Positions 7,630 to 53,960 of a DNA stretch of 64,000 bases are shown here, piece by piece. The position numbers were made by a program, and so were the translations under genes. This stretch comes from Escherichia coli (GTDB taxonomy: Bacteria > Pseudomonadota > Gammaproteobacteria > Enterobacterales > Enterobacteriaceae): NCBI RefSeq assembly GCF_013122565.1, contig NZ_CP053258.1; one strand, written 5' to 3'. The number at the start of each line of letters is the position of its first letter. Within the stretch, counting starts at the first letter, position 1. The notes under the pieces were generated by a model. The model was not told where the DNA came from. It saw only the letters and a list, made by a program, of their open reading frames with translations, and made no database searches.

Positions 7630-7745
7630 ATTGCCTGATGCGCTGCGCTTATCAGGCCTACCAATAAACTGCAATACATTGAATTTTCATGACTTTGTAG
7701 GCCGGATAAGGCGTTCACGCCGCATCCGGCATGAACAACGCACAC
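7630..7745. repeat. REP/BIME-type palindromic elements
   Basis: gcctgatgcgctgcgcttatcaggcctac and gtaggccggataaggcgttcacgccgcatccggca motifs typical of E. coli REP units. Confidence 0.75.
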
Positions 7746-29898: not shown

Positions 29899-30885
29899 GT
29901 GATTACGCTAATTTGTCATCCTGAAAGCAAACGCACATTTTATTTTTTCCAGGCCGCGTCACGCTTGCAGGAACATATCAACGTAGTGAGCTATGATCAA
30001 GCACTTACCCTGCCCTTAAATAAAGGCATGGTAAAAATTGATCCCCCCTTACATCAGGAAACAGATATTCGCTTAATTAATACGGTTAGCCAAAACTATA
30101 TTACTTTTTTACAAAAAATGGCTAACCGAAGAGAAATCCGTTTTATTAACTCGCCAGAAGGTATCATTCATCTTCTGGATAAACGCCACTGTAAGCAACG
30201 ATTAATTGAACACGCGATCCCGACACCGCCAATATTAGCGGATGATATCCGTAGCTACGATCAACTGATCGCCTGTATGCGCAGCGAAAAGGTTTATCGC
30301 GTGTTTATTAAGCCGAATTTCGGATCAGGGGCCGCCGGGGTGCTGGCATTGAGTTTACATCCCGGCGATAACCGCCAGGTGCTTTATTGCGCCATCCAGG
30401 TTGCAGGTGACAGGCTGGTGAACAGTAAACATATTATCCGCTATGAAAACAGCGATGATATTACGTTGATTGTGAATGCTATTTTACAACAAGAAAATAT
30501 TATCGAATGCTGGCTGGCAAAAGCCAGAGTGGGCAATAAAAGCTACGATTTACGAATAGTATACGTTAATGGCGAAATCGTCTGGCGGGTTGTCAGAACA
30601 TCATCACAGCCGATCACCAATTTGCATCTACAAAATGAAGCTATCCGTTTTGCCGATCTTAATTTACCCGCAGAAAAAGTTACTGAAATTGACACGCTTT
30701 GTCTCAACGCCATGAAACTCTACCCGGACGTACACATTGCCGGGATTGACGTATTACTCACGCAAAACTTAACCCCCTATATTATCGAAATTAACGGCCA
30801 GGGCGATCTTATTTATCAGGACACCTGCGAACAAAACATAATTTATCAACGCCAGATTCAGGTAATGAGAGAACACCATGTATAA
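29899..30885 (+). CDS. ATP-grasp ligase (RimK-like)
   Basis: GTG start with RBS; KPNFGSGAAGV and ...YIIEINGQGDL resemble ATP-grasp motifs; 8-nt overlap with next ORF. Confidence 0.55.
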   Translation: MITLICHPESKRTFYFFQAASRLQEHINVVSYDQALTLPLNKGMVKIDPPLHQETDIRLINTVSQNYITFLQKMANRREIRFINSPEGIIHLLDKRHCKQRLIEHAIPTPPILADDIRSYDQLIACMRSEKVYRVFIKPNFGSGAAGVLALSLHPGDNRQVLYCAIQVAGDRLVNSKHIIRYENSDDITLIVNAILQQENIIECWLAKARVGNKSYDLRIVYVNGEIVWRVVRTSSQPITNLHLQNEAIRFADLNLPAEKVTEIDTLCLNAMKLYPDVHIAGIDVLLTQNLTPYIIEINGQGDLIYQDTCEQNIIYQRQIQVMREHHV

Positions 30886-31750
30886 CGTAACTGACGAAGT
30901 ACCAGAAAATACCCGCACGGCAATCCATTCCTGCGATGGCGAAATCAATATGAATGATTTGATTGCCAGGGAAGCGAACGTTCTGTTTGTGGTGCTTGAT
31001 TCCCTGCGTTTTGATATTGCGTTTCAGGAACAAGAGGCGGGCAATACGCCGAACATTAACCGCTATGGTCGCTGGATAAAGTGCGAAGCCGCTGGCAATT
31101 TTACCTGGCCTTCGCATCATTCGATGTTTTCTGGTTTTATGCCTAAGCCACTGGAAGCCGCACCAGGTCATTCAATGCTCTTTTTTCCCAAAGATATTGG
31201 CTTAGGGCGTTTAGGACCAAAAAATGCGTTCGCATTCAGTGAAGAGACGTGGATTAAGGGGATGGAAAACAAAGGTTACCGCACTATCTGCGTGGGTGGC
31301 GTCTCCTTTTTTAATAACCGTTCAGGGATGGGAAAAGTGTTCCCGGCGATGTTTAAAGAGAGTTACTGGTATCCTAATTTCTCCTGCACGGTGAAAGAGA
31401 GCATGGATAATCAGCTCACCTTAATTAACAAAAAGGTGAACGCTGAACAGCCGCTGATGATGTATATCAATATCGACACCATTCATTATCCGAATCACTT
31501 TTATATTGAAAATGCCAAACCTGGCGATACGGTAGAAACGCATGCCGCTGCCCTACATTATATTGATGCCAGAATCGATAAACTTTTTGATATCTTTCGG
31601 CAAACCAGGAGGGAGACGTTAGTTATTCTCTGTTCCGATCATGGCACCTGCTACGGGGAAGACGGTAAATATTTCCACAGTTTTAACCATCCGATTGTGA
31701 ATACCGTACCCTATTTTCACTTTGTGTTAGACGGCAAAACCCATGAATAA
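30878..31750 (+). CDS. Alkaline-phosphatase-superfamily metalloenzyme (sulfatase/phosphotransferase-like)
   Basis: N-terminal VLDSLRFD and C-terminal LCSDHGTCYGEDG metal-binding-type motifs. Confidence 0.5.
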   Translation: MYNVTDEVPENTRTAIHSCDGEINMNDLIAREANVLFVVLDSLRFDIAFQEQEAGNTPNINRYGRWIKCEAAGNFTWPSHHSMFSGFMPKPLEAAPGHSMLFFPKDIGLGRLGPKNAFAFSEETWIKGMENKGYRTICVGGVSFFNNRSGMGKVFPAMFKESYWYPNFSCTVKESMDNQLTLINKKVNAEQPLMMYINIDTIHYPNHFYIENAKPGDTVETHAAALHYIDARIDKLFDIFRQTRRETLVILCSDHGTCYGEDGKYFHSFNHPIVNTVPYFHFVLDGKTHE

Positions 31751-32981
31751 TGAATCGATTTATCAGCAATATATGTACAGTTACCCGCATAAGACCGCTT
31801 ATCGGGAATTAAACAATATTGCTTTTGCAGATGTGAAGTCGCGTATTTACGAGCATAAAACACATCTCTATATTCATATGCCTTTTTGCCAGAGCCGCTG
31901 CGGGTTTTGTAATCTTTTTACCTGCACGGGCGCAGACAATGCCTTTATCGACAACTACATAGAGGCGATTATCGTCCAGGCCCAGCAAATGCAACTTGCG
32001 CCTGTAGACTGGGCCAGTTTTACCATTGGCGGCGGTACGCCACTGCTGCTTAATGTCGGGCAACTGTCGCGATTGTTTCGCGGGGTGTTTGACGAATTAC
32101 AGGTCGATGCGCAGATTTTTAAGGCCATTGAAACATCGCCTTCCGATACCTCTGCCGAAAAAGTCGCGTTGTTGCGCCAGCTTGCGGTAAACCGTGTCAG
32201 TATTGGTGTTCAGAGTTTTAACGATCTGGAACTTGCCACATTACACCGCCGCCATAGCACTAAAAATGCCCATCGGGCGCTGGAGCTACTGCGCACGGGT
32301 AATTTCCCGATACTCAATATTGATATTATTTACGGTATTCCCGGTCAAACAGCCGCAAGTTTATTGGCGTCGCTTAATCAGGCATTAGATTATCAACCTG
32401 ACGAACTGTTTCTGTACCCACTGTATAACATGCCTCGCCAGCCGGATATGTATAGCCTCTATATTGAAGCCCGCGATCGCTTATTGCATGAAGGTTATAC
32501 GCAAACGTCAATGCGCCGTTTTGTGCGGGTGAATAATGATTCGGCGGTTGAAAGTTGTGGCTTTGAAAATTCGCTGGCGCTTGGCGCGGGCGGGCGCAGT
32601 TACCTGGGCAATTTACATTACTGCACGCCGTGGTCGCAAAACCAGCCTGCATCGCGACAAATTGTCGCGGATTTTATCGCCCGACAAGATAAAACCCTTA
32701 TTAACCACGGCTATGTGCTTTCACAAGCAGAAATGAAGCGGCGTTTTGTTATCAAGAATCTCTTTTTCTATAAAGGGCTTTCGTTACGTGATTATCAGCG
32801 CCAGTTCTCCTCTGAGGTATTAAGCGATTTTCCCCTGCTGGGCGATTTTATCAAACAAGATTATTGCCACCAGCAGGATAATCGCATTCTGCTCACCGCG
32901 CAGGGTTTGGCGCTTTCGGACCAGCTTGGCCCGCTGTTTATTTCCCCGGAAGTTCGCAGGCTGGAGACGCATAAACGATGA
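31743..32981 (+). CDS. HemN-family radical SAM protein (paralog of coproporphyrinogen oxidase; HemW / class C methyltransferase-like)
   Basis: LYIHMPFCQSRCGFCNLF (CX3CX2C) and FTIGGGTPLL, parallel to LYVHIPFCHKLCYFCGC / LHWGGGTPTYL in the canonical hemN of this window. Confidence 0.7.
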   Translation: MNNESIYQQYMYSYPHKTAYRELNNIAFADVKSRIYEHKTHLYIHMPFCQSRCGFCNLFTCTGADNAFIDNYIEAIIVQAQQMQLAPVDWASFTIGGGTPLLLNVGQLSRLFRGVFDELQVDAQIFKAIETSPSDTSAEKVALLRQLAVNRVSIGVQSFNDLELATLHRRHSTKNAHRALELLRTGNFPILNIDIIYGIPGQTAASLLASLNQALDYQPDELFLYPLYNMPRQPDMYSLYIEARDRLLHEGYTQTSMRRFVRVNNDSAVESCGFENSLALGAGGRSYLGNLHYCTPWSQNQPASRQIVADFIARQDKTLINHGYVLSQAEMKRRFVIKNLFFYKGLSLRDYQRQFSSEVLSDFPLLGDFIKQDYCHQQDNRILLTAQGLALSDQLGPLFISPEVRRLETHKR

Positions 32982-33832
32982 CGCTCAAGCAGATCCAGAC
33001 GCTGATTTATCGCGGCGAGATAAAGTCGTGTAATTATCGCTGTGGCTATTGTCCGTTTCATAAACAAGACCGCAATGATAAGCAGCAGGATGAAGCGGCA
33101 TTATGGCGCATGGTTGAGCATTTACCGGCGCTGGGTTCACCGTTAAATGTGTTGATTACACCCTACGGCGAAGCATTGCGTTATCGGTATTATATGGCGG
33201 CGATGGCGGAAATAAGCCGTTATTCCCATGTCCAGGCGGTGGGTATTCAGACCAACGCCTCGTTTAATTTATCCTCGTTGATAGCGACTTTTCAGCACTC
33301 TCAGGGCGATTTAGCAAAGCTGCGGCTGTGGTGTTCATTTCATCCTTCCCAGGTCAGTAAAGAAGTTTTCCTTAAACAGATACTGGCAATTAAGGACGCG
33401 GGGATTAATTGTTCTGTGGGGGCCGTCGCCAACGTAACCGACTACGACACATTCCAGTGGTTACGCGCGCATCTTCCTTCCGATATCTATTTCTGGCTAA
33501 ACGCCAATGAGCGCGATAAAAGGCCCACCAGCGACGAAAGAAATAGCCAGTTTCAGTTGCTGGACCCGCTTTATCCTTTGGAAACCAGCCTCTGGCCTGC
33601 CAATGTTGCGTTTTGTCTCGGCGGCAAAAAGAGCGTGTTTATGAATGCCGAAGGCGATCTCTTCGCCTGTAATATCAGCAAAATTAAAATCGGCAATTTA
33701 TATCAGCAGCAACTTTCATCTCCAGCCTGTATGGCCAGGCACTGCCACTGTTATCTGGCTTATCATCTGCGTCAGGATATCCCGGCCCTCTCACAATTTG
33801 ATGCTGAACGCTGTTTTCGGATCTTCCCTTAA
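32978..33832 (+). CDS. Radical SAM protein with C-terminal Cys-rich (SPASM/twitch-like) region
   Basis: N-terminal SCNYRCGYCPF (CX3CX2C); C-terminal FACN...PACMARHCHC cluster; ATGA overlap with upstream ORF. Confidence 0.55.
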   Translation: MTLKQIQTLIYRGEIKSCNYRCGYCPFHKQDRNDKQQDEAALWRMVEHLPALGSPLNVLITPYGEALRYRYYMAAMAEISRYSHVQAVGIQTNASFNLSSLIATFQHSQGDLAKLRLWCSFHPSQVSKEVFLKQILAIKDAGINCSVGAVANVTDYDTFQWLRAHLPSDIYFWLNANERDKRPTSDERNSQFQLLDPLYPLETSLWPANVAFCLGGKKSVFMNAEGDLFACNISKIKIGNLYQQQLSSPACMARHCHCYLAYHLRQDIPALSQFDAERCFRIFP

Positions 33833-34530
33833 TGATCTGCCGGTTAATCGCGCTCGATTTAGATGGCACATTGCTGAACAGCAAGAAGATGATTTCCCCT
33901 GCGTCGGTTTCGGCACTGCAAAGCGCACAACAGGCAGGCGTGAAGATTATTCTCGCCACCGGGCGTTCGCACAGCGAAGCCCTGCCTTATTACCAGCAAT
34001 TGCAGTTAACCGGGCCGATGATTTGCTGTAACGGCAGCTATCTTTATCATCCGTATCAGCGGCAAATAGTGAATCCGCAACCGCTTAATATTCAGCAGGT
34101 GGAGAAACTGCGAGCATGGTTTTCACTACACTCACTCCAGCCAATTTTGTATACCCACGATGAGTTAACTTTGCAGATAAGCCTGGTACATCGCAAGGCT
34201 TCGTTATTGCGCCAGGCTGAGGAATTTGCCCGGCAAGAATTATCGCTGGCCTGTAGCTGGTCCTGGCATCATCAACTGGATATTACACAGGCGGGGTGTG
34301 AGAAAGGCAAAAGTCTGGCCTGGTATGCACAGCAGCAAAATATCGCTCTGGATGAAATCATCGCCTTTGGCGATAACGATAATGATGCGGGGATGTTGCA
34401 GATGGTAGGGAAAGGTATTGCGATGGGCAATGGTAGCTTTCTGGCAAAAGCCAGCTCTAACTGCGTTATCGGTCACAACAACACTGACGCGATTGCGGAT
34501 TTTCTTTATGCGCAGGGGGTCAGTTCATGA
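33832..34530 (+). CDS. HAD-superfamily (Cof-like) phosphatase
   Basis: Motif I IALDLDGTLLNS; C-terminal FGDNDNDAGM; start overlaps upstream stop by 1 nt. Confidence 0.7.
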   Translation: MICRLIALDLDGTLLNSKKMISPASVSALQSAQQAGVKIILATGRSHSEALPYYQQLQLTGPMICCNGSYLYHPYQRQIVNPQPLNIQQVEKLRAWFSLHSLQPILYTHDELTLQISLVHRKASLLRQAEEFARQELSLACSWSWHHQLDITQAGCEKGKSLAWYAQQQNIALDEIIAFGDNDNDAGMLQMVGKGIAMGNGSFLAKASSNCVIGHNNTDAIADFLYAQGVSS

Positions 34531-34602
34531 CGCATCTTATCAGGTCTACAAAAGCAAAAAACCTGCCATCGCTGGCAGGTTTTTTATGACTAAAAAACGA
34601 AA

Positions 34603-36426
34603 TTAATCGTCTTTCGGTGCGCGGTTAGCGCGACGACGATCGTTTTCCGTCAGGTGACGTTTACGAATACGGATAGAGGTCGGAGTCACTTCTACCAGTT
34701 CGTCATCATCGATGAACTCCAGAGCTTGTTCCAGAGTCATGCGGATAGGCGGAACCAGAACAACGGCTTCGTCAGTACCGGAAGCACGCATGTTGGTCAG
34801 TTTCTTACCGGTCAGGCAGTTTACAGTCAGGTCGTTAGAGCGGCTATGAATACCGATAATCTGACCTTCGTAAACTTCTGCACCGTGACCGAGGAACAGC
34901 TTACCGCGATCCTGCAGACCGAACAGCGCGAACGCGACCGCTTTACCCTGACCGTTAGAGATCAGTACGCCGTTCTGACGCTGACCCACTTCACCCGGAC
35001 GTACGTCGTCGTAGTGGCTGAAGGTGGAGTACAGCAGACCAGTACCGGAAGTCATGGTCATGAACTCAGAACGGAAGCCAATCAGACCACGGCTTGGGAT
35101 CACGTAGTCGAGACGTACGCGGCCTTTACCGTCTGGATTCATGTTTTTCAGGTCGCCTTTACGTTCGCCCAGCGCCTGCATTACAGAACCCTGATGCTGT
35201 TCTTCAACGTCCAGAGTCACGTTTTCATACGGCTCTTGTTTACGACCGTCGATTTCACGGAAGATAACTTTCGGACGGGATACCGCCAGTTCGAAACCTT
35301 CACGACGCATGTTTTCGATCAGAACAGACAGGTGCAGTTCGCCACGACCAGAAACGCGGAACGCATCGGCGTCTTCGGTTTCTTCTACGCGCAGCGCAAC
35401 GTTGTGTACCAGTTCTTTGTTCAGACGATCCAGGATCTGACGAGACGTTACGAACTTACCTTCTTTACCGCAGAACGGCGAGGTGTTAACGCAGAAGAAC
35501 ATAGAAACGGTCGGCTCATCAACGGAGAGTGCCGGCAGCGCTTCAACGTTTTGCGTGTCGCAAACGGTGTCAGAAATGTTCAGTTCGCCCAGGCCCGTGA
35601 TCGCCACGATATCGCCAGCTTCCGCCAGGTCGGTTTCGATACGTTCCAGACCGAGGTGGCCCAGCACTTTACCGACTTTCGCGTTACGGGTTTTGCCTTC
35701 GCTATCGATGATAGTGACCTGCTGGTTCGGCTTCACTTTACCGCGCTTGATGCGGCCAATGCCGATAACGCCAACATAGCTGTTGTAATCGAGCTGAGAA
35801 ATCTGCATCTGGAACGGACCGTCAAGGTCAACGTCCGGCGCAGGAACGTGATCAACAATCGCCTGATACAGCGGGGTCATGTCTTCAGCCATATCTTCGT
35901 GGTCCAGACCCGCGATACCGTTCAGCGCAGAAGCGTAAACGATCGGGAAGTCCAGCTGCTCGTCGGTCGCGTCGAGGTTAACGAACAGGTCGAATACCTG
36001 ATCCACAACCCAGTCAGGACGCGCGCCAGGGCGGTCAACTTTGTTGATAACAACAATCGGCTTCAGGCCGTAAGCAAACGCTTTTTTGGTTACGAAGCGC
36101 GTTTGCGGCATCGGGCCGTCAAATGCGTCAACCACCAGCAGCACTGAGTCTACCATGGACATTACACGTTCAACTTCACCACCGAAGTCGGCGTGCCCCG
36201 GGGTATCAACGATGTTGATACGGTAATCATTCCATTTGATAGCGGTGTTTTTCGCGAGGATGGTAATCCCACGCTCTTTCTCCAAATCGTTGGAGTCCAT
36301 CACGCGCTCTTGGGTTTCGGCACGAGAGTCGAACGTACCGGATTGTTGGAGCAGCTTGTCTACCAGGGTGGTTTTACCATGGTCTACGTGCGCGATGATG
36401 GCGATATTACGCAATTTTTCGATCAC
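34603..36426 (-). CDS. typA: Ribosome-dependent translational GTPase BipA/TypA
   Basis: 607 aa; G1 [12 protein letters not shown]-like architecture. Confidence 0.9.
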
Positions 36427-36577
36427 AACTTTGCCTCAGGCATTAGAAATAGCGCGTTATTGTACACGGATTAATCGCACTACAAAACAGGATCACAAAC
36501 ATCCTCCGCAAACAAGTATTGCAGAGTCCCTTTGTGATCGCTTTCACGGAGCATAAAAAGGGTTATCCAAAGGTCAT

Positions 36578-36645
36578 TGCACCAATATGGTGCTTAATGT
36601 TTCCATTGAAGCACTATATTGGTGCAACATTCACATCATGGTGCA
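36578..36645 (+). promoter_or_regulatory. NtrC (NRI) enhancer sites upstream of glnA
   Basis: Dyad sites tgcaccaatatggtgct, gcactatattggtgca and tcacatcatggtgca (TGCACC-N-GGTGCA type). Confidence 0.75.
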
Positions 36646-36698
36646 GCCCTTTTGCACGATGTTAAGCATGATAACGCCTTTTAGGGGCAATTTAAAAG

Positions 36699-36715
36699 TT
36701 GGCACAGTTTTCGCT
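36699..36715 (+). promoter_or_regulatory. Sigma-54 promoter glnAp2
   Basis: ttGGcacagttttcGCt with GG/GC spacing typical of -24/-12 promoters, about 85 bp upstream of the glnA ATG. Confidence 0.8.
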
Positions 36716-36798
36716 TTATCTTTTTTACGGCGACACGGCCAAAATAATTGCAGATTTCGTTACCACGACGACAATGACCAATCCAGGAGAGTTAAAGT

Positions 36799-38208
36799 AT
36801 GTCCGCTGAACACGTACTGACGATGCTGAACGAGCACGAAGTGAAGTTTGTTGATTTGCGCTTCACCGATACCAAAGGTAAAGAACAGCACGTCACTATC
36901 CCTGCTCATCAGGTGAATGCTGAATTCTTCGAAGAAGGCAAAATGTTTGACGGCTCCTCGATTGGCGGCTGGAAAGGCATTAACGAATCCGACATGGTGC
37001 TGATGCCAGACGCATCCACCGCAGTGATTGACCCGTTCTTCGCCGACTCTACCCTGATTATCCGTTGCGACATCCTTGAACCTGGCACCCTGCAAGGCTA
37101 TGACCGTGACCCGCGCTCTATTGCGAAGCGCGCCGAAGATTACCTGCGTTCCACTGGCATTGCCGACACCGTACTGTTCGGGCCAGAACCTGAATTCTTC
37201 CTGTTCGATGACATCCGTTTCGGATCATCTATCTCCGGTTCTCACGTTGCTATCGACGATATCGAAGGCGCATGGAACTCCTCCACCCAATATGAAGGTG
37301 GTAACAAAGGTCACCGTCCGGCAGTGAAAGGCGGTTACTTCCCGGTGCCACCTGTAGACTCTGCTCAGGATATTCGTTCTGAAATGTGTCTGGTGATGGA
37401 ACAGATGGGTCTGGTGGTTGAAGCCCATCACCACGAAGTAGCGACTGCTGGTCAGAACGAAGTGGCTACCCGCTTCAATACCATGACCAAAAAAGCTGAC
37501 GAAATTCAGATCTACAAATATGTTGTGCACAACGTGGCGCACCGCTTCGGTAAAACCGCGACCTTTATGCCAAAACCGATGTTCGGTGATAACGGCTCCG
37601 GTATGCACTGCCACATGTCGCTGTCTAAAAACGGCGTTAACCTGTTCGCGGGTGACAAATATGCAGGTCTGTCTGAGCAGGCGCTGTACTACATTGGCGG
37701 CGTAATCAAACACGCTAAAGCGATTAACGCCCTGGCAAACCCGACCACCAACTCTTACAAGCGTCTGGTCCCGGGCTACGAAGCACCGGTAATGCTGGCT
37801 TACTCTGCGCGTAACCGTTCTGCGTCTATCCGTATTCCGGTGGTTTCTTCTCCGAAAGCACGTCGTATCGAAGTACGTTTCCCGGATCCGGCGGCTAACC
37901 CGTACCTGTGCTTTGCTGCCCTGCTGATGGCCGGTCTTGATGGTATCAAGAACAAGATCCATCCGGGCGAAGCCATGGACAAAAACCTGTATGACCTGCC
38001 GCCAGAAGAAGCGAAAGAGATCCCACAAGTTGCAGGCTCTCTGGAAGAAGCACTGAACGAGCTGGATCTGGACCGCGAGTTCCTGAAAGCCGGTGGCGTG
38101 TTCACGGATGAAGCGATCGATGCGTACATCGCTCTGCGTCGCGAAGAAGATGACCGCGTGCGTATGACTCCGCATCCGGTAGAGTTTGAGCTGTACTACA
38201 GCGTCTAA
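36799..38208 (+). CDS. glnA: Glutamine synthetase
   Basis: 469 aa; [25 protein letters not shown]-terminus; adenylylation-region NLYDLP. Confidence 0.95.
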
Positions 38209-38404
38209 GTGTTTTAGTTGCCGTGGAAACTTTTCGCCTGTCTCTGGCAGGCCTGGGATCGGTGGCAAGCACATTACGCCGGATGCGACGCAAATGCGTC
38301 TTATCCGGCCTACACGGTGATGATGTGGTAGGCCGGAGCAGGTGAGTCGCTCTCCAACGTGAAGTTTGTCAGCTATCTGTAGCCCATCTCTGCATGGGCT
38401 TTTT
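38209..38404 (+). ncRNA. glnA 3' UTR with REP units and intrinsic terminator (candidate GlnZ-type 3'UTR sRNA)
   Basis: REP motifs gccggatgcgacgcaaatgcgtcttatccggcctac then hairpin gcccatctctgcatgggc plus T-run (38381-38404); sRNA status is inferred from recalled literature on glnA 3'UTR sRNAs. Confidence 0.4.
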
Positions 38405-38493
38405 TCTCCGTCAATTCTCTGATGCTTCGCGCTTTTTATCCGTAAAAAGCTATAATGCACTAAAATGGTGCAACCTGTTCAGGAGACTGCTTT

Positions 38494-39543
38494 ATGGCAA
38501 CAGGCACGCAGCCCGATGCTGGGCAGATCCTCAACTCGCTGATTAACAGTATTTTGTTAATCGATGACAACCTGGCGATCCATTACGCCAACCCCGCCGC
38601 GCAACAACTGCTCGCCCAAAGCTCCCGCAAATTGTTTGGTACACCGTTACCGGAACTGTTGAGCTACTTCTCATTAAATATCGAGCTGATGCAAGAAAGT
38701 CTGGAGGCGGGGCAAGGTTTTACCGATAACGAAGTGACGCTGGTCATCGACGGGCGCTCGCATATCCTTTCTGTGACGGCCCAGCGTATGCCGGACGGCA
38801 TGATCCTGCTGGAGATGGCGCCGATGGATAACCAGCGCCGCTTAAGCCAGGAACAGCTACAACATGCTCAACAAGTTGCTGCCCGTGATTTAGTGCGTGG
38901 CCTGGCACATGAGATTAAAAATCCGCTTGGCGGTTTACGTGGCGCGGCGCAGCTTCTCAGCAAAGCATTACCTGACCCTTCACTGCTGGAATATACCAAA
39001 GTGATTATCGAACAGGCGGACCGGCTGCGAAATCTGGTCGACCGTCTGTTGGGGCCGCAACTACCCGGTACGCGCGTTACCGAAAGTATTCACAAAGTGG
39101 CTGAACGCGTGGTGACGCTGGTGTCGATGGAACTGCCGGACAACGTGCGGTTGATTCGTGATTACGACCCCAGCCTGCCGGAACTGGCGCACGACCCGGA
39201 TCAAATTGAACAGGTCTTGCTGAATATTGTGCGCAATGCGCTACAGGCGCTGGGGCCTGAAGGCGGTGAAATCATTCTGCGGACCCGCACCGCGTTTCAA
39301 CTGACCTTACACGGCGAGCGCTATCGGCTGGCGGCGCGGATTGATGTGGAAGACAACGGGCCGGGCATTCCGCCTCATTTGCAGGATACGCTGTTTTACC
39401 CGATGGTCAGCGGCCGCGAAGGTGGCACCGGGCTTGGCTTATCCATCGCCCGTAATTTGATTGATCAGCATTCAGGCAAAATTGAATTTACCAGTTGGCC
39501 AGGTCATACCGAGTTCTCGGTTTACCTGCCTATCAGGAAATAA
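38494..39543 (+). CDS. glnL: Nitrogen regulation sensor kinase NtrB
   Basis: 349 aa; H-box [14 protein letters not shown]-binding DNGPGI/GTGLGL. Confidence 0.9.
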
Positions 39544-39554
39544 AGGTGACGTTT

Positions 39555-40964
39555 ATGCAACGAGGGATAGTCTGGGTAGTCGATGACGATAGTTCCATCC
39601 GTTGGGTGCTTGAACGTGCGCTCGCTGGAGCGGGTTTAACCTGTACGACATTTGAGAACGGCGCGGAGGTACTGGAGGCGCTGGCGAGCAAAACGCCGGA
39701 TGTGCTGCTTTCAGATATCCGTATGCCGGGAATGGACGGGCTGGCACTGCTCAAGCAGATTAAACAGCGCCATCCGATGCTTCCGGTCATCATTATGACC
39801 GCACATTCCGATCTGGATGCTGCCGTCAGCGCCTATCAACAAGGGGCGTTTGATTATCTGCCCAAACCGTTTGATATCGACGAAGCCGTGGCGCTGGTTG
39901 AGCGCGCCATCAGTCATTACCAGGAACAGCAGCAGCCGCGTAATGTTCAGCTTAATGGCCCAACGACCGATATCATCGGCGAAGCGCCAGCCATGCAGGA
40001 CGTGTTCCGTATTATCGGTCGGCTTTCGCGTTCTTCTATTAGCGTGCTGATTAACGGCGAATCCGGCACCGGTAAAGAACTGGTCGCTCATGCCCTGCAT
40101 CGCCACAGTCCGCGAGCCAAAGCGCCGTTTATCGCGCTGAATATGGCGGCTATCCCGAAAGATTTGATCGAATCAGAACTGTTTGGTCACGAGAAAGGCG
40201 CATTTACCGGCGCGAATACCATTCGTCAGGGGCGTTTTGAACAGGCTGATGGCGGTACATTATTTCTCGATGAAATTGGCGATATGCCGCTGGATGTGCA
40301 GACGCGTTTGCTGCGCGTGCTGGCAGACGGTCAGTTTTACCGCGTTGGCGGCTATGCGCCGGTGAAAGTGGATGTGCGGATTATCGCTGCCACTCACCAG
40401 AATCTCGAACAGCGGGTGCAGGAAGGTAAGTTCCGTGAGGATCTGTTCCACCGCCTGAACGTTATCCGCGTTCATCTGCCGCCGCTGCGCGAACGTCGGG
40501 AAGATATTCCCCGTCTGGCGCGCCATTTTTTACAGGTTGCCGCGCGCGAACTGGGCGTAGAAGCGAAGTTGCTGCATCCGGAAACCGAAGCTGCTCTGAC
40601 GCGTCTGGCGTGGCCAGGCAACGTGCGCCAGCTGGAAAACACCTGCCGCTGGCTAACAGTGATGGCCGCCGGGCAGGAAGTGTTGATTCAGGATTTGCCC
40701 GGCGAACTGTTTGAATCAACGGTTGCGGAGAGTACTTCGCAAATGCAACCGGACAGTTGGGCGACACTTTTAGCGCAGTGGGCAGACAGAGCGCTGCGTT
40801 CCGGTCATCAAAACCTGCTTTCCGAAGCGCAGCCTGAGCTGGAGCGGACATTATTGACGACCGCGTTGCGACATACACAGGGGCATAAACAGGAAGCGGC
40901 GCGGCTACTCGGCTGGGGCCGCAACACCCTGACGCGTAAGTTAAAAGAGCTAGGGATGGAGTGA
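39555..40964 (+). CDS. glnG: Nitrogen regulation response regulator NtrC (sigma-54 activator)
   Basis: Start [12 protein letters not shown] (receiver domain); AAA+ GESGTGKE; 469 aa; track ORF begins upstream in-frame. Confidence 0.9.
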
Positions 40965-41074
40965 TTCAGGCTTGTGTGTAAAGATTGATTATTGAGCGCA
41001 AATTGCTGGTATTTTGCGCTTTACTGTTCCGATAAGTTCAGTATGATCTTGCCCGGAAAACGGGGAGAGTCATT

Positions 41075-41185
41075 ATGCTGGAATCAATAATTAATCTGGT
41101 ATCGAGTGGCGCAGTTGACAGCCACACACCGCAAACTGCTGTTGCTGCCGTGCTGTGTGCCGCGATGATTGGGCTGTTTAGTTGA
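41075..41185 (+). CDS. yshB: Small protein YshB (36 aa)
   Basis: ATG 41075 to TGA 41185 encodes MLESIINLVSSGAVDSHTPQTAVAAVLCAAMIGLFS; position between glnG and hemN as I recall for K-12 yshB. Confidence 0.55.
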   Translation: MLESIINLVSSGAVDSHTPQTAVAAVLCAAMIGLFS

Positions 41186-41199
41186 AGCTCGTTGTTTAT

Positions 41200-41300
<101 letters not shown>

Positions 41301-41384
41301 ACAAAAGCAATAATTTCAACAGGTTTTGTTGACCAGCGCATCAGGCAACCTTGTTCTCAGCACATTGATAGCGCCATTCACTAT

Positions 41385-42758
41385 TTAAATCACCCGAGAG
41401 AACTGCTGCATCCGCGCTTTCTGGCGCAGATAGGTATCAAAGCACATGCAAATGTTGCGGATCAGCAAGCGACCTTTCGCCGTCACCTGTATTCCCTTCT
41501 CATCCACATCCACCAGCCCATCTTTTGCTAATGGGGCGAGCAGCTTGAGATCTTCCGCAAAGTAATCAGCGAAGTGCAAATCCCACTGTTTCTCAATAGG
41601 GGCGTAATCCAGACGGAAGTTGCAGATGAGCGACTTAATCACATCGCGGCGAATACAGTCATCACGCGTTAGCGCAATACCACGCCACAGCGCGTTGCCT
41701 TGTTCATCCACTTGCTGATAGTACTGCTTCAACTCTTTCTGGTTCTGCGCGTAGCAGTCGCCAATCATGCTGATGGCGGAAACGCCCATCCCCAGCAGAT
41801 CGGTATCGCCCTGAGTGGTGTAGCCCTGGAAGTTACGATGCAGCACGCCTTCACGCTGGGCCACCGCCAGCTCGTCATCCGGACGGGCAAAGTGATCCAT
41901 ACCGATAAACTGATAGCCCGATTGCGTCAGGAAGGCGATGGTTTCCTGCAGGATATCGAGTTTTTGCTGCGGACTCGGCAGGTCAGCATCTTTGATTTTG
42001 CGCTGAGCAGCAAAAATGGTCGGCAGATGCGCATAGTTAAAGACGCTCAGACGGTCAGGGTTTAGCTCCGCCACGCGTTTCAGGGTAAAGGCGAAACTTT
42101 CCGGCGTCTGTTTCGGCAGGCCGTAAATCAGGTCGATGTTGGTGGAGGTAAAGCCAATCTCACGCGCATGGTTAAGCAGCGCAAAGATAAACTCTTCATC
42201 CTGCTCGCGGTTAACCAGACGTTGCACTTCTTTGTTGAAGTCCTGCACGCCCATACTCAGGCGATTAAAGCCCTCGGCGCGTAAATGATCGAGTACATCC
42301 AGTTCGATTTCCCGCGGATCGACTTCGATCGAAATCTCCGCATCGGCATTGAACTGGAAGTTTTCGCGCAGCAGCTTCATCAGGCGGCTGATTTGCGCTT
42401 TATTAAGATACGTCGGCGTTCCGCCGCCCCAGTGCAGCTGGCTGACGTGACGCCCGGCGAACAGCGGTGCACGATGGACGATTTCTTGCTCCAGCGCGTC
42501 CAGATACTGATCGGCCTTGTGCTGCTGGCGAGTAACAATCTTATTACAACCGCAGAAGTAACAAAGCTTATGGCAGAACGGGATATGTACGTAGAGAGAT
42601 AATGGACGCTCAGGATAGCGCGCCACGGCTTGTAAAAACGCCTGTTCGCCGAAGTCTTCTGAAAACTCCAGCGCGGTCGGGTACGAGGTGTATCGTGGCC
42701 CGGAATAGTTATATTTCTGGATCAGGGCCAGATCCCAGTCGATTTGCTGTACAGACAT
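41385..42758 (-). CDS. hemN: Oxygen-independent coproporphyrinogen III oxidase
   Basis: Radical SAM CHKLCYFCGC and GGGTP motifs; 457 aa from MSVQQIDWD. Confidence 0.9.
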   Translation of the reverse strand: MSVQQIDWDLALIQKYNYSGPRYTSYPTALEFSEDFGEQAFLQAVARYPERPLSLYVHIPFCHKLCYFCGCNKIVTRQQHKADQYLDALEQEIVHRAPLFAGRHVSQLHWGGGTPTYLNKAQISRLMKLLRENFQFNADAEISIEVDPREIELDVLDHLRAEGFNRLSMGVQDFNKEVQRLVNREQDEEFIFALLNHAREIGFTSTNIDLIYGLPKQTPESFAFTLKRVAELNPDRLSVFNYAHLPTIFAAQRKIKDADLPSPQQKLDILQETIAFLTQSGYQFIGMDHFARPDDELAVAQREGVLHRNFQGYTTQGDTDLLGMGVSAISMIGDCYAQNQKELKQYYQQVDEQGNALWRGIALTRDDCIRRDVIKSLICNFRLDYAPIEKQWDLHFADYFAEDLKLLAPLAKDGLVDVDEKGIQVTAKGRLLIRNICMCFDTYLRQKARMQQFSRVI

Positions 42759-42946
42759 GCTCACTCCTTCCGATGGCGTCTCTGGCGGCTACGGCGTACC
42801 GGCGGATGCCCGTTTCGGGTCATCAGCCGGTTGCGCAGCCACTTTTGTCGCCGCGACAACCGCTGTAGTTTAACGAATAACCACACCAGATAACATATAA
42901 CCGGAAGGGTTATCAGCAGAACGGGAAGGCCCACGGCGGAAATCCG

Positions 42947-43456
42947 TTAGTTACCCCGCAGCAGACGCATCATGTCTTCTTGCTTCTCGTCTTCTTCCTC
43001 TTCTTCGTCATCGTCATAAGAGAGGCCGAGTTTCTGCATCAACTCATCAATACGATCCAGTTTAGCATCCACCCAGGATTGCTCTTCGGCGCTCAGGGTT
43101 TCGCCTGCTTCCAGACGTTCCAGCAGCGCATCCAGACGCTCATCCGTTTCCAGTAATTCCAACTCCGCCTGCGGTGAAAGCATAGGTTTCTCACTCTTCG
43201 GTTTGTGCTGTTTGGTGACTTTTTCAGTCACGCCCAATGGAATAGGGGTTTTGCTGCCAATACGTGGATCTTTCGGTGCGTTCTGGCCTTTGCTGCCTGA
43301 CGTGGTGTTACCGCCCGCTGCGCGGCTGCCCGGCGCATGACCACGACGTTTTTTCTGACGCTTACGGTCACGAGCTTCCTGATCCAGCTCCTCGCGTGTT
43401 TTTCGACGCGCTTTTGCATGACCTTTGCTGCGTGAGTTTGAAGATGATGGTTTCAT
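42947..43456 (-). CDS. yihI: Der GTPase-activating protein YihI
   Basis: Highly basic N-terminus and acidic C-terminal tail; 169 aa from [12 protein letters not shown]. Confidence 0.85.
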
Positions 43457-43522
43457 AATGGTTCGTCTTTTAGCCGTTTTATTCAGTATAGATTTGCGGC
43501 GGAATCTAACAGAAAGCAAGCA

Positions 43523-43767
43523 AAGAAAAAAGGCGACAGATTACTCTGTCGCCTTTTTTCCTGACTCATAACCCTTAACGGGTCTTACAATCCTTGCAGG
43601 CCGCCAACACACCCTGTTTTTCCATTAGCCGGAACAATCCGTGTTGATTCCATTTCCGTTTAATTACGTCTCCGGACGTTTGTCTTCCTGACAATCCTCT
43701 GTCTTCGCCTCCTGGCGCTCCTGACCCTCATCCTGAGTCATTGTTCCTGTTAGCGTCCTCGCTCTAT
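43523..43767 (-). ncRNA. csrC: CsrC small RNA (CsrA-sequestering)
   Basis: Minus-strand sequence begins ATAGAGCGAGGACGCTAACAGGAACAATGACTCAGGATGAGGGTCAGGAGCG, carries many GGA motifs, and ends in the terminator GGCGACAGAGTAATCTGTCGCCTTTTTT; lies between yihI and engB. Confidence 0.8.
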
Positions 43768-44037
43768 GGGTGCTACTTTACGCCTTTGCTTTAAACAAAC
43801 AATCAACCGCCATCAGCATTTGCACATTTTCAGAGTTTTATATAAAAGCAATTAGCTGATTTATATAGCTTATTTGATATGGATCGCAGAATTTTCTCTG
43901 CTATTTCGCATAAAGACTATCGGCAATGTCTCACAAAGCGTATGGCTTTTACTTACAACGCTCACGCCGAAAAATCCGCCTTTTATTATGGTTCAGGTAT
44001 AATCGCCACAAAGCTTTGACTGACGGAGACGACCGCT

Positions 44038-44670
44038 TTGACTAATTTGAATTATCAACAGACGCATTTTGTGATGAGTGCGCCAGATATTCGCCACCTA
44101 CCTTCCGATACCGGAATTGAAGTGGCTTTTGCAGGCCGTTCCAACGCAGGTAAATCCAGCGCGCTGAACACGCTGACTAACCAGAAAAGCCTGGCTCGTA
44201 CCTCAAAAACCCCTGGACGCACCCAGCTTATCAACCTGTTTGAAGTGGCTGACGGCAAGCGTCTGGTTGACTTGCCTGGGTACGGTTATGCGGAAGTCCC
44301 GGAAGAGATGAAGCGCAAATGGCAGCGCGCGCTCGGCGAATACCTCGAAAAACGTCAGAGCCTGCAAGGTCTGGTGGTGCTAATGGATATTCGCCATCCG
44401 CTGAAAGATTTGGATCAGCAGATGATTGAGTGGGCGGTAGACAGCAATATCGCCGTTCTGGTGCTGCTGACCAAAGCGGACAAACTGGCAAGCGGCGCAC
44501 GTAAAGCGCAATTGAATATGGTGCGTGAAGCGGTGCTGGCGTTTAACGGTGATGTGCAGGTTGAAACGTTTTCTTCGCTGAAGAAACAAGGCGTGGACAA
44601 GCTGCGGCAGAAACTGGATACCTGGTTTAGCGAGATGCAGCCTGTAGAAGAAACGCAGGACGGCGAATAA
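44038..44670 (+). CDS. engB: Ribosome biogenesis GTPase EngB/YihA
   Basis: TTG start; [23 protein letters not shown]1 GRSNAGKSS. Confidence 0.9.
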
Positions 44671-44684
44671 TTTTCTTGCCTTAA

Positions 44685-44770
44685 AGCTTGTGCCGGATGT
44701 GGCGTATCCGGCCCGTAAATTCAATAGATTACAATTCTACCGTTGGCCTGATAAACATGGCGCATCAGGC
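44685..44770. repeat. REP palindromic elements
   Basis: gccggatgtggcgtatccggc and ggcctgataaacatggcgcatcaggc. Confidence 0.7.
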
Positions 44771-44794
44771 ATTACGGACTTTTTCTTTCGCCCA

Positions 44795-44903
44795 ATAAAA
44801 AACGCCCCAGTCATTACTGACTGGGGCGGCTAAAATATTCAGCCAAATCCGATTACGTGAAGTAAAAGGTCTGAAAGATAGAACATCTTACCTCTGTACC
44901 CTA
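44795..44903 (-). ncRNA. spf: Spot 42 small RNA
   Basis: Reverse complement reads GTAGGGTACAGAGGTAAGATGTTCTATCTTTCAGACCTTTTACTTCACGTAATCGGATTTGGCTGAATATTTTAGCCGCCCCAGTCAGTAATGACTGGGGCGTTTTTTA. Confidence 0.9.
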
Positions 44904-45051
44904 CGCGACTAACTTTACTCTTTTTTGTTCAGTTCAGAAAGCACTTTTTGTAATTTTTTTTCAGTTGTTGCATAGGAATTTCTAATAGCCATCACAAAAC
45001 GTGACAGCTTATGTTGCTTACTTACGAAAAAAGGGCATGTTCAGGCGAATC

Positions 45052-47838
45052 TTAGTGCGCCTGATCCCAGTTTTCGCCACTCCCCACTTCCACCAGCAAC
45101 GGCACATCCAGACGGGTACAGTTTTCCATCAGTTGATGAATCTGCTTCGCGACGGCATCGACATCATCTTTATGAACTTCAAATACCAGTTCATCGTGTA
45201 CCTGCATGATCATACGCACACGCGGTTGCTCAGCCTGTAACCACGCATCAACGGCAATCATCGCCCGTTTGATAATGTCGGCGGCGGTTCCCTGCATTGG
45301 CGCGTTAATAGCTGCACGTTCAGCCGCTGCACGACGAGCACCATTGCTGGATTTGATATCCGGCAGATACAGACGGCGTCCGTCCAGCGTTTCAACGTAG
45401 CCCTGCTCTTTCGCCTGAGCACGGGTGCGTTCCATATACTCCAGCACGCCAGGGTAGCGTTCGAAGTAAAGGTCCATGTACTTCTGCGCTTCTTTACGTG
45501 GAATGTTCAATTGCCGCGCCAGACCGAAAGCACTCATGCCATAAATCAGACCAAAGTTGATCGCTTTCGCGCTACGGCGTTGCTCGCTGGTGACGGTTTC
45601 CAGTGGCAAACCAAACACTTCTGCCGCCGTTGCCCGGTGGATATCTTTTCCTTCCGCGAATGCGGTCAGCAAGCCTTTGTCACGCGAGAGATGCGCCATA
45701 ATGCGCAGTTCAATCTGCGAGTAGTCCGCTGAGACAATCACATAATCCTCTGGCGCAATAAACGCCTGGCGGATACGACGACCTTCTTCGTTACGCACCG
45801 GAATGTTTTGCAGGTTAGGATCGGTTGACGATAAACGTCCCGTTGCAGTTACTGCCTGGTGATAAGAGGTATGCACACGCCCGGTTTTCGGGTTGATCAT
45901 CAGCGGCAGCTTGTCGGTGTAAGTCGACTTCAGCTTCGCCAGACCACGATACTCCAGAATCACTTTTGGCAACGGATAGTCCAGCGCCAGTTCTTCCAGT
46001 ACCTCTTCCGACGTTGACGGCGCGCCACCCGGCGTTTTCTTCAGCGGTTTAATGCCCTGTTTTTCAAACAGAATGGTTTGTAACTGCTTGGTGGAAGAAA
46101 GGTTAAATTCTTCACCTGCAATTTCATGCGCTTTCTTTTCCAGCTCAGCAAGACGAAGGGTGAGCTCTTCAGAATGATTGTGCAGCACTTTCGGATCGAT
46201 CTTCACACCGTTACGTTCAATGCGTGAAAGCACCGGCACCAGCGGCATTTCGATATTCTCGAAGACGTTCAACGGCCCTTTGTGTTTTTGCAGATCCGGC
46301 CACATTTTCAGATGCAACTGCAAGGTGACATCCGCATCTTCGGCGGCGTAACGTCCGGCCTCTTCGAGGGCAATCTGGTTAAAGGTCAGTTGATTTTTGC
46401 CTTTACCCGCAATCTCTTCAAAAGTGATGGTTTTGTGCTTCAACCAACGTTCCGCGAGGCTGTCCATATCGTGACGCCCGGCAACGCTATTGAGAATGTA
46501 GGACTCCAGCATGGTATCAAACGCAATCCCACGCAGCTCAATGCCGTAATTCGCCAGAATACCGCGGTCGTATTTCAGGTTTTGCCCGACCTTCAGCGCC
46601 TTTTCATTTTCCAGCAGCGGTTTTAGCAACTCGAGTGCACGCTCGCGAGAGATTTGATCGGGCGCATCAAGATAATCATGAGCAACCGGAATATATGCCG
46701 CTACGCCTGGCTCGATAGCAAAAGAAAGCCCGACCAGGTTAGCAGAGATGTTATCGAGGCTGTCGGTTTCGGTATCAAATGCAAATACCGGCGCTTTTTC
46801 CAGCTTCGCAATCCACGCTTTCAGTGTTTCTTCATCAAGGATGGTGACGTAGTTGTCATAAGAAATCACCGTTGCCGTCACTTCTGGCGCTTCGTCTGCA
46901 ACACTGGTTTCCTGCGGTCTGGCTGCGGGTTTCGCCCCTTTAGCCTGTAACCATTTGCCCGCTTCGACATCAGCAGTCCAGCGTTTGAACTCATACTTTT
47001 TGAACAGCCCCAACAACTCTTCCGCCGCCGGTTGCTGCACTTCCAGTTGTTCACAGGTCAGCTCCAGTTCAACGTCGGTTTTAATCGTCGCCAGCTGGTA
47101 TGAGAGATAAGCAACTTCTTTGTTTTGCTCGAGCTTCGCTGCCATTGTTTTCGCGCCACGGAAGCTCAACCCAGCAATTTTTTCTGGCTCGGCATACAGC
47201 GTATCCAGTCCGCCAAGACCTTGCAGCAATGCCTGCGCGGTTTTTTCACCGACGCCCGGTACGCCAGGGATGTTATCAGAGGAGTCACCCATCAGCGCCA
47301 GGAAGTCGATGATCAGTTCAGGCGGCACGCCGTACTTATTCACCACCTCTTCCGGTCCGAGGATGGTATTCGTCATGGTATTGATAAGCGTAATATTTGG
47401 CGTCACCAGCTGCGCCATATCTTTATCGCCAGTGCTGATCAGCACCGGACGCCCAGCTTTTTCGGCTTCGCGCGCCAGAGTACCGATAACGTCGTCCGCT
47501 TCTACGCCAGAAACCGCCAGCAGCGGCAGTCCCATCGCTTTAACCATCGCGTGCAGAGGTTCGATTTGTGCTCGCAGATCGTCCGGCATTGGCGGGCGAT
47601 GTGATTTGTAATGTTCAAACAGTTCATCACGAAAGGTTTTTCCCTTGGCGTCAAAGACCACCGCTGCATGCGTCGGTTTATATTGCATGATCAGACTGCG
47701 CAGCATGTTGAGGACACCATACATCGCACCGGTAGGCTCGCCTGCGCTGTTAGTCAGCGGGGGAAACGCGTGATATGCGCGATAAAGATAAGATGAACCA
47801 TCTACAAGGATAAGTGGATTTTGGGGGATCTGAACCAT
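45052..47838 (-). CDS. polA: DNA polymerase I
   Basis: 928 aa; [21 protein letters not shown] 5'-nuclease N-terminus; Klenow motifs. Confidence 0.95.
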
Positions 47839-53898: not shown

Positions 53899-53960
53899 GC
53901 AAGAGTAGGCTGGATAAGACGCGCCAGCGTCGCATCCGGCATTTTTTTCTGCGCCAATGC

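What the first reader, a model, noticed from the sequence alone, without database searches (positions are those of the whole stretch)
38209..38404. Structured glnA 3' UTR with REP units and a terminator, candidate 3'UTR-derived sRNA
Downstream of the glnA stop there are REP palindromes and a strong intrinsic terminator (gcccatctctgcatgggc plus T-run). From memory of the literature, enterobacterial glnA 3' UTRs give rise to a nitrogen-responsive sRNA (GlnZ); this strain's UTR may encode a REP-containing variant.
Basis: partly seen in the sequence, partly recalled or inferred. Interest (0 to 1): 0.3.

Follow-up and report, generated by a model that had tools for sequence, protein, structure and literature searches.

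The report
Known GlnZ small RNA, K-12 form
The stretch after the glutamine synthetase gene is the already characterised GlnZ small RNA in its standard E. coli K-12 form, differing from the laboratory strain by one base, so it is ordinary.

Summary
glnA ends at 38208. The next 197 nt (38209-38405) contain one complete REP palindrome, a 10-nt fragment of an inverted REP, and an intrinsic terminator (7-bp stem, six T).

The interpretation also holds, but it is not new and not specific to this strain. The segment matches 196 of 197 nt of the E. coli K-12 glnA 3'UTR. That UTR is the published GlnZ sRNA: "K-12 type" in Miyakoshi et al. 2022 (eLife) and "class III, REP insertion" in Walling et al. 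2022.

- **Conserved elements:** the published seed UUGCCGUGGAAA (38218-38229), three RN|WUU RNase E-type motifs around the stop codon, and the terminator are all identical to K-12.
- **The one difference:** T38275 (C in K-12) turns a C-G pair into U-G in the long REP-containing stem. The predicted fold does not change.
- **Distribution:** the K-12-type UTR occurs in 1570 of 5426 complete E. coli genomes and in the E. albertii type strain.
- **Seed and terminator conservation:** both are invariant across the K-12 and E. albertii forms. In the O157 and O111 forms the 12-nt seed and the terminator hairpin are also unchanged.

Expression, processing and target repression in this strain are inferred from near-identity, not shown. 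Novelty: already known. Interest: low.

The parts
36700..36714 (+). glnAp2-type sigma-54 promoter motif TGGCACAGTTTTCGC, which drives glnA and therefore GlnZ transcription
   Evidence: Pattern match. It aligns to the K-12 sequence TGGCACAGATTTCGC with one spacer difference at 36708. Its identity as glnAp2 rests on established knowledge.
36799..38208 (+). glnA (glutamine synthetase), the parental mRNA. The protein is identical to that of K-12.
   Evidence: ORF. It aligns to the annotated K-12 glnA. The translation shows 0 amino-acid differences over 469 residues plus stop.
38183..38187 (+). RNase E-type motif RN|WUU (AGUUU) inside the end of glnA; candidate upstream processing site
   Evidence: Motif scan. 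The sequence is identical to K-12. Miyakoshi et al. report two RNase E sites flanking the stop codon. Exact assignment to this motif is my inference.
38209..38405 (+). glnA 3'UTR of 197 nt, which is the K-12-type (class III) GlnZ sRNA. The main published form, GlnZ194, would start at about 38212-38213.
   Evidence: 196/197 identical to K-12. The length matches the published 197-nt K-12-type UTR. The 194/174/213-nt forms are described.
38211..38215 (+). RNase E-type motif (GUUUU) just after the stop codon. Cleavage here would give a 193-194-nt RNA, i.e. GlnZ194.
   Evidence: a new 5' end at 38213 gives 193 nt to 38405. The mapping is inferred.
38218..38229 (+). Seed UUGCCGUGGAAA
   Evidence: Exact match to the published seed. 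It is invariant in K-12, O157-type, O111-type and E. albertii. It pairs with the K-12 sucA 5'UTR around -43 (UCCACGGC core, -20.5 kcal/mol).
38229..38233 (+). RNase E-type motif (ACUUU). Cleavage here would give about 175 nt, i.e. GlnZ174, which lacks the seed.
   Evidence: Walling et al. state that the seed lies between nt 194 and 174 from the 3' end and that GlnZ174 does not repress SucA.
38236..38252 (+). Small hairpin GCCUGUC-UCU-GGCAGGC
   Evidence: Minimum-free-energy and centroid structure. The pairs are kept in E. albertii.
38256..38379 (+). Long imperfect stem-loop with the REP at its centre. This is the 'insertion' that separates seed and terminator in class III GlnZ.
   Evidence: Fold. 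Walling et al. probed this stem and found RNase III cleavage in vitro.
38275..38275 (+). The only difference from K-12 within 38119-38594: T here, C in K-12. It changes a C-G pair to U-G in the long stem.
   Evidence: Same predicted structure, -78.8 versus -81.0 kcal/mol. Pair 64-152 is CG:2, UG:1. No complete E. coli genome is 100% identical over 38150-38500 (best 99.7%).
38277..38313 (+). REP (repetitive extragenic palindrome), complete copy
   Evidence: Inverted repeat I1. Six family members in the window against 0 expected. The weak Rfam naRNA4 (REP325) hit is due to the REP: 30.5 bits, below the gathering score of 59.5.
38328..38337 (+). 10-nt fragment of an inverted REP (GTAGGCCGGA), which pairs with 38304-38313
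   Evidence: Inverted repeat I2, 100% complementary. The hairpin folds at -21.9 kcal/mol.
38381..38405 (+). Intrinsic terminator and Hfq-type 3' module: 7-bp stem, 6-nt loop, U6
   Evidence: Invariant in all four UTR types compared. Matches the terminator of the Rfam Ysr49 consensus.
38451..38472 (+). Context outside the sRNA: TATAAT (38451-38456) and the NtrC-type palindrome TGCACTAAAATGGTGCA (38456-38472) ahead of glnL, i.e. the separate glnL promoter region
   Evidence: Sequence positions, identical to K-12. The functional assignment rests on established knowledge of the glnALG operon. The simple promoter scan did not call it.

Best explanation
The region is the glnA 3'UTR and encodes the K-12-type (class III, REP-containing) form of the known sRNA GlnZ.

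Mechanism, as established for K-12 and inferred here from near-identity:
1. Under nitrogen limitation NtrC activates the sigma-54 promoter glnAp2, and transcription stops at the intrinsic terminator at 38381-38405.
2. RNase E, with Hfq, cuts at U-rich sites flanking the stop codon. This releases a roughly 194-nt RNA whose single-stranded 5' end carries the seed UUGCCGUGGAAA.
3. The REP-centred long hairpin folds on itself, which brings seed and terminator close together.
4. The seed pairs with the 5'UTRs of sucA, glnP and aceE and represses them. This diverts 2-oxoglutarate towards glutamate and glutamine synthesis.

This strain's copy differs from K-12 only by C-to-U at 38275, a change from C-G to U-G that should be neutral for structure.
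For: Shown here:
- Position directly after the glnA stop, same strand, 197 nt to the end of the T-run.
- 196/197 identity to K-12.
- Exact seed.
- Seed and terminator are invariant across the K-12 type, O157 type, O111 type and E. albertii, while the middle of the RNA carries 17 changes in E. albertii.
- Terminator called by the scan.
- Fold more stable than shuffles, z = -3.2, with the same structure in K-12 and E. albertii.
- RN|WUU motifs sit at positions that would give about 221, 193 and 175-nt RNAs, close to the published 213/194/174 forms.
- The seed pairs with the K-12 sucA 5'UTR (8-nt perfect core at -43, -20.5 kcal/mol).
- A sigma-54 promoter motif is present upstream of glnA.

From the literature:
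- Northern blots, Hfq and RNase E dependence, and compensatory mutations for sucA, glnP and aceE (PMC9731577).
- Structure probing, RNase III cleavage, the REP insertion and the three classes (bioRxiv 10.1101/2022.04.01.486790).
Against: Nothing in the sequence argues against it. The limits are these:
- Expression, processing and Hfq binding in this strain were not observed.
- This strain's own sucA, glnP and aceE leaders are outside the window.
- The sucA duplex energy is only modestly better than shuffled seeds (45 of 1000 shuffles as good).
- Rfam 15 returned no GlnZ-named family, so no curated model could be applied.
- No compensatory base changes were seen in the stem, with only three sequences available.
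Confidence: 0.95

Rival explanations
1. The region is only a passive mRNA 3' end. On this view the REP and terminator protect glnA mRNA from 3' exonucleases and partly insulate glnLG, with no trans-acting RNA.
For: REP hairpins and terminators are known stabilisers (established knowledge). Miyakoshi et al. found slightly less GlnA when the terminator was deleted. The structured part is very stable.
Against: This does not explain why a single-stranded 12-nt motif is invariant across UTR types that otherwise share little. Compensatory-mutation experiments in K-12 show direct target repression by this same sequence. The two roles are not mutually exclusive.
Confidence: 0.03
2. The region encodes a small protein: the 40-aa GTG ORF at 38223-38345 or the 44-aa TTG ORF at 38186-38320.
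For: Both ORFs are listed mechanically; translations are.
Against: The ORFs run through the REP palindrome. E. albertii has a 1-nt insertion at the position matching window ~38295 and another near 38345, which would shift the frame. Neither ORF has an ATG start. The same sequence is experimentally an sRNA.
Confidence: 0.01
3. The region is a nucleoid-associated REP RNA of the naRNA4/REP325 kind rather than a base-pairing sRNA.
For: Rfam naRNA4 hit at 38250-38310, 30.5 bits, E = 0.0024.
Against: The score is far below the gathering score of 59.5. The hit appears on both strands because it is simply the REP palindrome. It covers only 61 of 197 nt.
Confidence: 0.01

Closest known systems
E. coli K-12 GlnZ (K-12 type, Miyakoshi et al. 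2022 eLife; class III, Walling et al. 2022)
   Same: Same locus, same 197-nt length, same seed, REP, long stem, terminator and RNase E-type motifs. Identity is 196/197.
   Different: One transition, U instead of C at window 38275 (nt 67 of the UTR), giving U-G instead of C-G in the long stem. None of 5426 complete E. coli genomes matches the window's 351-nt segment around the UTR exactly.
EHEC O157:H7 EsrF / O157-type GlnZ (class I, 85-nt UTR)
   Same: Same seed and same terminator, after the same gene. Reported to repress the same targets.
   Different: In the O157 type the seed sits directly before the terminator and there is no REP-centred hairpin of about 150 nt. It instead has a 38-nt 5' segment that the K-12 type lacks.
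O111-type GlnZ (230-nt UTR)
   Same: Same seed and terminator.
   Different: It is the O157 type plus a 98-nt insertion flanked by AGGTTCAAA repeats upstream of the seed. It is found in 993 of 5426 complete genomes.
E. albertii glnA 3'UTR (type strain NBRC 107761)
   Same: Class III architecture. The seed region and terminator are identical and the predicted structure is the same.
   Different: 17 substitutions or indels, all in the middle REP/stem part. Flanking genes are only about 94% identical to the window.
Rfam RF02766 Ysr49 (Yersinia sRNA 49)
   Same: Its consensus contains GCCGuGGAAACUUUU followed by a GCCCau...auGGGC U-tail terminator, i.e. the GlnZ seed plus terminator.
   Different: Scores are below the gathering score of 95: 18.5 bits on the window and 34.1 bits on the O157 type. 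In the window the seed is separated from the terminator, so only the terminator aligns. That Ysr49 lies after Yersinia glnA was not verified.

Membership tests
GlnZ (glnA 3'UTR-derived sRNA) | Lies in the 3'UTR of glnA, on the sense strand, between the glnA stop and glnL | tested here: met
   glnA 36799-38208, glnL 38494-39543, same strand. They align to the annotated K-12 genes.
GlnZ (glnA 3'UTR-derived sRNA) | Conserved seed 5'-UUGCCGUGGAAA-3' | tested here: met
   Exact at 38218-38229. Invariant in four other UTRs.
GlnZ (glnA 3'UTR-derived sRNA) | Conserved Rho-independent terminator with a U-tail (Hfq-binding 3' module) | tested here: met
   7-bp stem plus T6 at 38381-38405. Identical in all types compared.
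GlnZ (glnA 3'UTR-derived sRNA) | Class III / K-12-type architecture: seed next to the stop codon, with the REP-containing long hairpin between seed and terminator | tested here: met
   Seed 10 nt after the stop, REP at 38277-38313, long stem at 38256-38379. 196/197 identical to K-12.
GlnZ (glnA 3'UTR-derived sRNA) | Release from glnA mRNA by RNase E at sites flanking the stop codon | not testable with these tools
   RN|WUU motifs at 38183, 38211 and 38229 are present and identical to K-12. Cleavage itself needs RNA data.
GlnZ (glnA 3'UTR-derived sRNA) | Induction by nitrogen limitation through NtrC and sigma-54 (glnAp2) | tested here: inconclusive
   A sigma-54 motif lies at 36700-36714 and NtrC-like palindromes lie upstream. 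One weak upstream NtrC-like site differs from K-12 (36662-36665). Expression was not measurable.
GlnZ (glnA 3'UTR-derived sRNA) | Seed complementarity to the sucA, glnP and aceE leaders | tested here: inconclusive
   With the K-12 sucA leader: 8-nt perfect core at -43, -20.5 kcal/mol, and 45 of 1000 shuffled seeds as good. The strain's own targets are outside the window. glnP and aceE were not tested.
GlnZ (glnA 3'UTR-derived sRNA) | Hfq binding and Hfq-dependent stability | not testable with these tools
   Shown for K-12 in PMC9731577.
REP (repetitive extragenic palindrome) | Imperfect palindrome of about 35 nt with the conserved ...CTTATC(C/A)GGCCTAC tail, extragenic and multi-copy | tested here: met
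   Arms 83% complementary. Six copies in the window at up to 3 mismatches, against 0 in 100 shuffles.
Rfam naRNA4 (RF02564) | Score at or above the family gathering score | tested here: not met
   30.5 bits against 59.5.
Rfam Ysr49 (RF02766) | Score at or above the family gathering score | tested here: not met
   18.5 bits against 95 on the window; 34.1 bits on the O157-type UTR.

The most novel reading that the evidence does not exclude
The lineage-specific C-to-U change at 38275 sits in the stem that RNase III cleaves in vitro in K-12 GlnZ. It might alter RNase III processing or glutamine-dependent turnover, and so change GlnZ half-life in this lineage. More broadly, the three glnA 3'UTR types may be exchanged between Escherichia lineages as a recombination cassette: the block 38119-38594 is almost identical to K-12 while the flanks differ by about 1.7%.
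Probability: 0.07. Interest if true: 0.2.

Novelty: already known. Interest (0 to 1): 0.08.

Why it matters
GlnZ links nitrogen assimilation to the TCA cycle. The same mRNA gives both glutamine synthetase and an sRNA that lowers 2-oxoglutarate dehydrogenase and the glutamine transporter. Recognising it here is a correct annotation and adds nothing to the biology. What the check adds:
- A count of how the three published UTR types are distributed in complete E. coli genomes: about 29% K-12 type, 18% O111 type and the rest (about 53%) presumably O157 type.
- A single, structurally conservative SNP in this lineage.
- A lead that the Rfam family Ysr49 is the Yersinia counterpart of GlnZ.

Tried and rejected
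- **Rfam at a permissive E-value**: no GlnZ-named family was returned. The hits were a sub-threshold REP hit (naRNA4) and a sub-threshold Ysr49 hit on the terminator.
- **Promoter scan**: no sigma-70 consensus inside the UTR or on the opposite strand. It therefore gives no support for an independent promoter at the resolution of this simple scan. Walling et al. cite dRNA-seq evidence for a weak internal promoter giving GlnZ213.
- **Small-ORF reading:** rejected because of frameshifting indels in E. albertii.
- **Special conservation of 38119-38594:** this block has 1 difference from K-12 in 476 nt against about 1.7% in the flanks. However, typA has a 956-nt block with no differences, so mosaic recombination explains it as well as selection does.
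- **Genome-collection scan** with the class III junction 25-mer: only the E. albertii type strain was found, so I could not name the window's own organism. It is E. coli-like: 98.3-98.8% identical to K-12 across typA-glnALG-hemN and 99.3% to the closest complete genome over glnA.
- **Salmonella alignment:** The published comparison is cited instead.
- **Ysr49's genomic location:** I looked in the literature and found nothing usable.

Full report
**Observation**

The window carries glnA at 36799-38208 (stop TAA at 38206-38208) and glnL from 38494, both on the + strand. The finding's coordinates, 38209-38404, are the glnA 3'UTR to within one base.

The quoted terminator is real. The scan calls a 7-pair stem at 38381-38400 with a 6-nt loop, followed by six T up to 38405, and the hairpin folds at -10.0 kcal/mol.

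A canonical REP lies at 38277-38313, with inverted-repeat arms 38275-38292 and 38295-38312. Its conserved 3' half has six matches in the window at up to three mismatches and none in 100 shuffles.

There is one complete REP, not several. The second palindrome is a 10-nt fragment of an inverted REP (38328-38337) that pairs perfectly with the end of the first.

The 194-nt RNA from 38212 to 38405 folds at -78.8 kcal/mol, against -64.0 +/- 4.6 for shuffles (z = -3.2).

**What it is**

A search of 5426 complete E. coli genomes finds this segment once per genome, always between glnA and glnL. Full-length matches (1570 genomes) include K-12 strains at 99.7% identity.

Base-by-base alignment with K-12 shows a single difference in the 3'UTR: T38275 where K-12 has C. 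The UTR is 197 nt long to the end of the T-run. That is exactly the length Miyakoshi et al. give for the "K-12 type" glnA 3'UTR (PMC9731577).

That paper and Walling et al. (bioRxiv 10.1101/2022.04.01.486790) establish the following for the K-12 sequence:
- It gives rise to the sRNA GlnZ, with a main form of 194 nt and minor forms of 213 and 174 nt.
- It is induced under nitrogen limitation through NtrC.
- It depends on Hfq and is released from glnA mRNA by RNase E at two sites flanking the stop codon.
- It represses sucA, glnP and aceE through the seed UUGCCGUGGAAA, shown by compensatory mutations.

Walling et al. explicitly describe the K-12 RNA as "class III". In this class the seed lies near the stop codon and a large REP insertion, folded into a long RNase III-sensitive stem-loop, separates it from the conserved terminator.

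**Anatomy in window coordinates**

- The seed is exact at 38218-38229.
- RN|WUU motifs, the RNase E consensus cited, lie at 38183, 38211 and 38229. Cuts there would give RNAs of about 221, 193 and 175 nt. The last two fit GlnZ194 and GlnZ174, and they explain why GlnZ174 lacks the seed. Assigning motifs to the published sites is my inference.
- The predicted structure leaves the seed region largely open. It is followed by a small hairpin (38236-38252), a long imperfect stem-loop (38256-38379) centred on the REP, and the terminator.
- K-12 gives the same structure at -81.0 kcal/mol. The SNP converts pair 64-152 from C-G to U-G.
- Upstream of glnA there is a sigma-54 motif, TGGCACAGTTTTCGC, at 36700.
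- Downstream of the terminator, TATAAT (38451) and the NtrC-type palindrome TGCACTAAAATGGTGCA (38456) precede glnL, as in K-12.

**Conservation**

I aligned the window with K-12, an O157:H7 strain (short UTR) and an O111-type strain (long UTR). The four share the end of glnA, the seed, the terminator and everything downstream. The rest of the UTR differs by large indels, as published.

A scan of one genome per species for the class III junction found only the E. albertii type strain. Its flanks are about 94% identical to the window. [quoted passage not shown] The consensus structure is kept, with no double compensatory changes among the three sequences.

Counts among complete E. coli genomes are 1570 K-12 type and 993 O111 type. 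The remaining roughly 2860 are presumably O157 type; I did not count them directly.

**Target check**

The known targets are not in the window. Using the K-12 sdhB-sucA spacer, the window's GlnZ 5' end pairs around -43 of sucA (UCCACGGC core) at -20.5 kcal/mol. Of 1000 shuffled seeds, 45 do as well. This is consistent with the published interaction but weak as independent evidence.

**Rivals**

- **Purely passive stabiliser or terminator.** This does not explain the invariant single-stranded seed, and the K-12 genetics contradict it.
- **Small ORFs.** The two ORFs across the REP are broken by indels in E. albertii.
- **naRNA4.** The Rfam hit is just the REP and falls far below threshold.

**The strain**

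GlnA protein is identical to that of K-12. The DNA across typA-glnALG-hemN is 98.3-98.8% identical to K-12, and the closest complete genome over glnA is 99.3% identical. No complete genome shares T38275. The organism is E. coli or a very close relative, and I could not name it.

**Verdict**

The feature is already known, and the strain-level difference is one conservative base. Function in this strain is inferred from near-identity, not shown. Interest is low.

Noticed in passing
window 38304-38405; L002:340-444: The consensus of Rfam family RF02766 (Ysr49, Yersinia sRNA 49) contains GCCGuGGAAACUUUU directly followed by a GCCCau..auGGGC U-tail terminator. That is the GlnZ seed plus terminator in the class I/II arrangement. 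[quoted passage not shown] Ysr49 is probably the Yersinia GlnZ orthologue. The papers I could search do not make the link.
   Followed up: partly
window 36638-36708: The glnA regulatory region differs from K-12 at 36662-36665: GTTAAG instead of GGTGCG inside TGCACGATGGTGCGCA. This removes a GGTGC half of an NtrC-like low-affinity site. It also differs at 36708, in the spacer of the sigma-54 promoter (TGGCACAGTTTTCGC versus ...AGATTTCGC). The same allele is present in E. coli strain EC09, so it is a natural variant.
   Followed up: partly
window 30000-34531: Over 30000-46000 the best-matching E. coli genomes are only 97.5% identical. Next to typA they carry an STM4011-STM4014 cluster (two radical SAM proteins, hydrolases). 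K-12 has yihL-yihM-yihN at that place. This part of the window was not examined further.
   Followed up: no
window 7697-7714, 34532-34549, 41219-41236, 41285-41302, 53905-53922: Five further REP copies. They include an inverted pair 66 nt apart (41219-41302), which looks like a BIME, in the spacer after glnG/yshB.
   Followed up: no
window 34634-35589 and 38119-38594: Divergence from K-12 is mosaic. There are 956 nt of typA with no difference and 476 nt around the glnA-glnL spacer with one difference, against about 1.7% overall and up to 5% per 200 nt in glnL and glnG. This suggests recombination blocks.
   Followed up: partly
L003:397-482 (O111-type UTR, not in the window): The published 98-nt insertion flanked by AGGTTCAAA repeats in the O111-type glnA 3'UTR is present in 993 of 5426 complete E. 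coli genomes. Some genomes have up to 3 matching places, so part of the query may be repeated elsewhere in the genome. There is a weak, non-significant Rfam sX9 hit on its minus strand.
   Followed up: no
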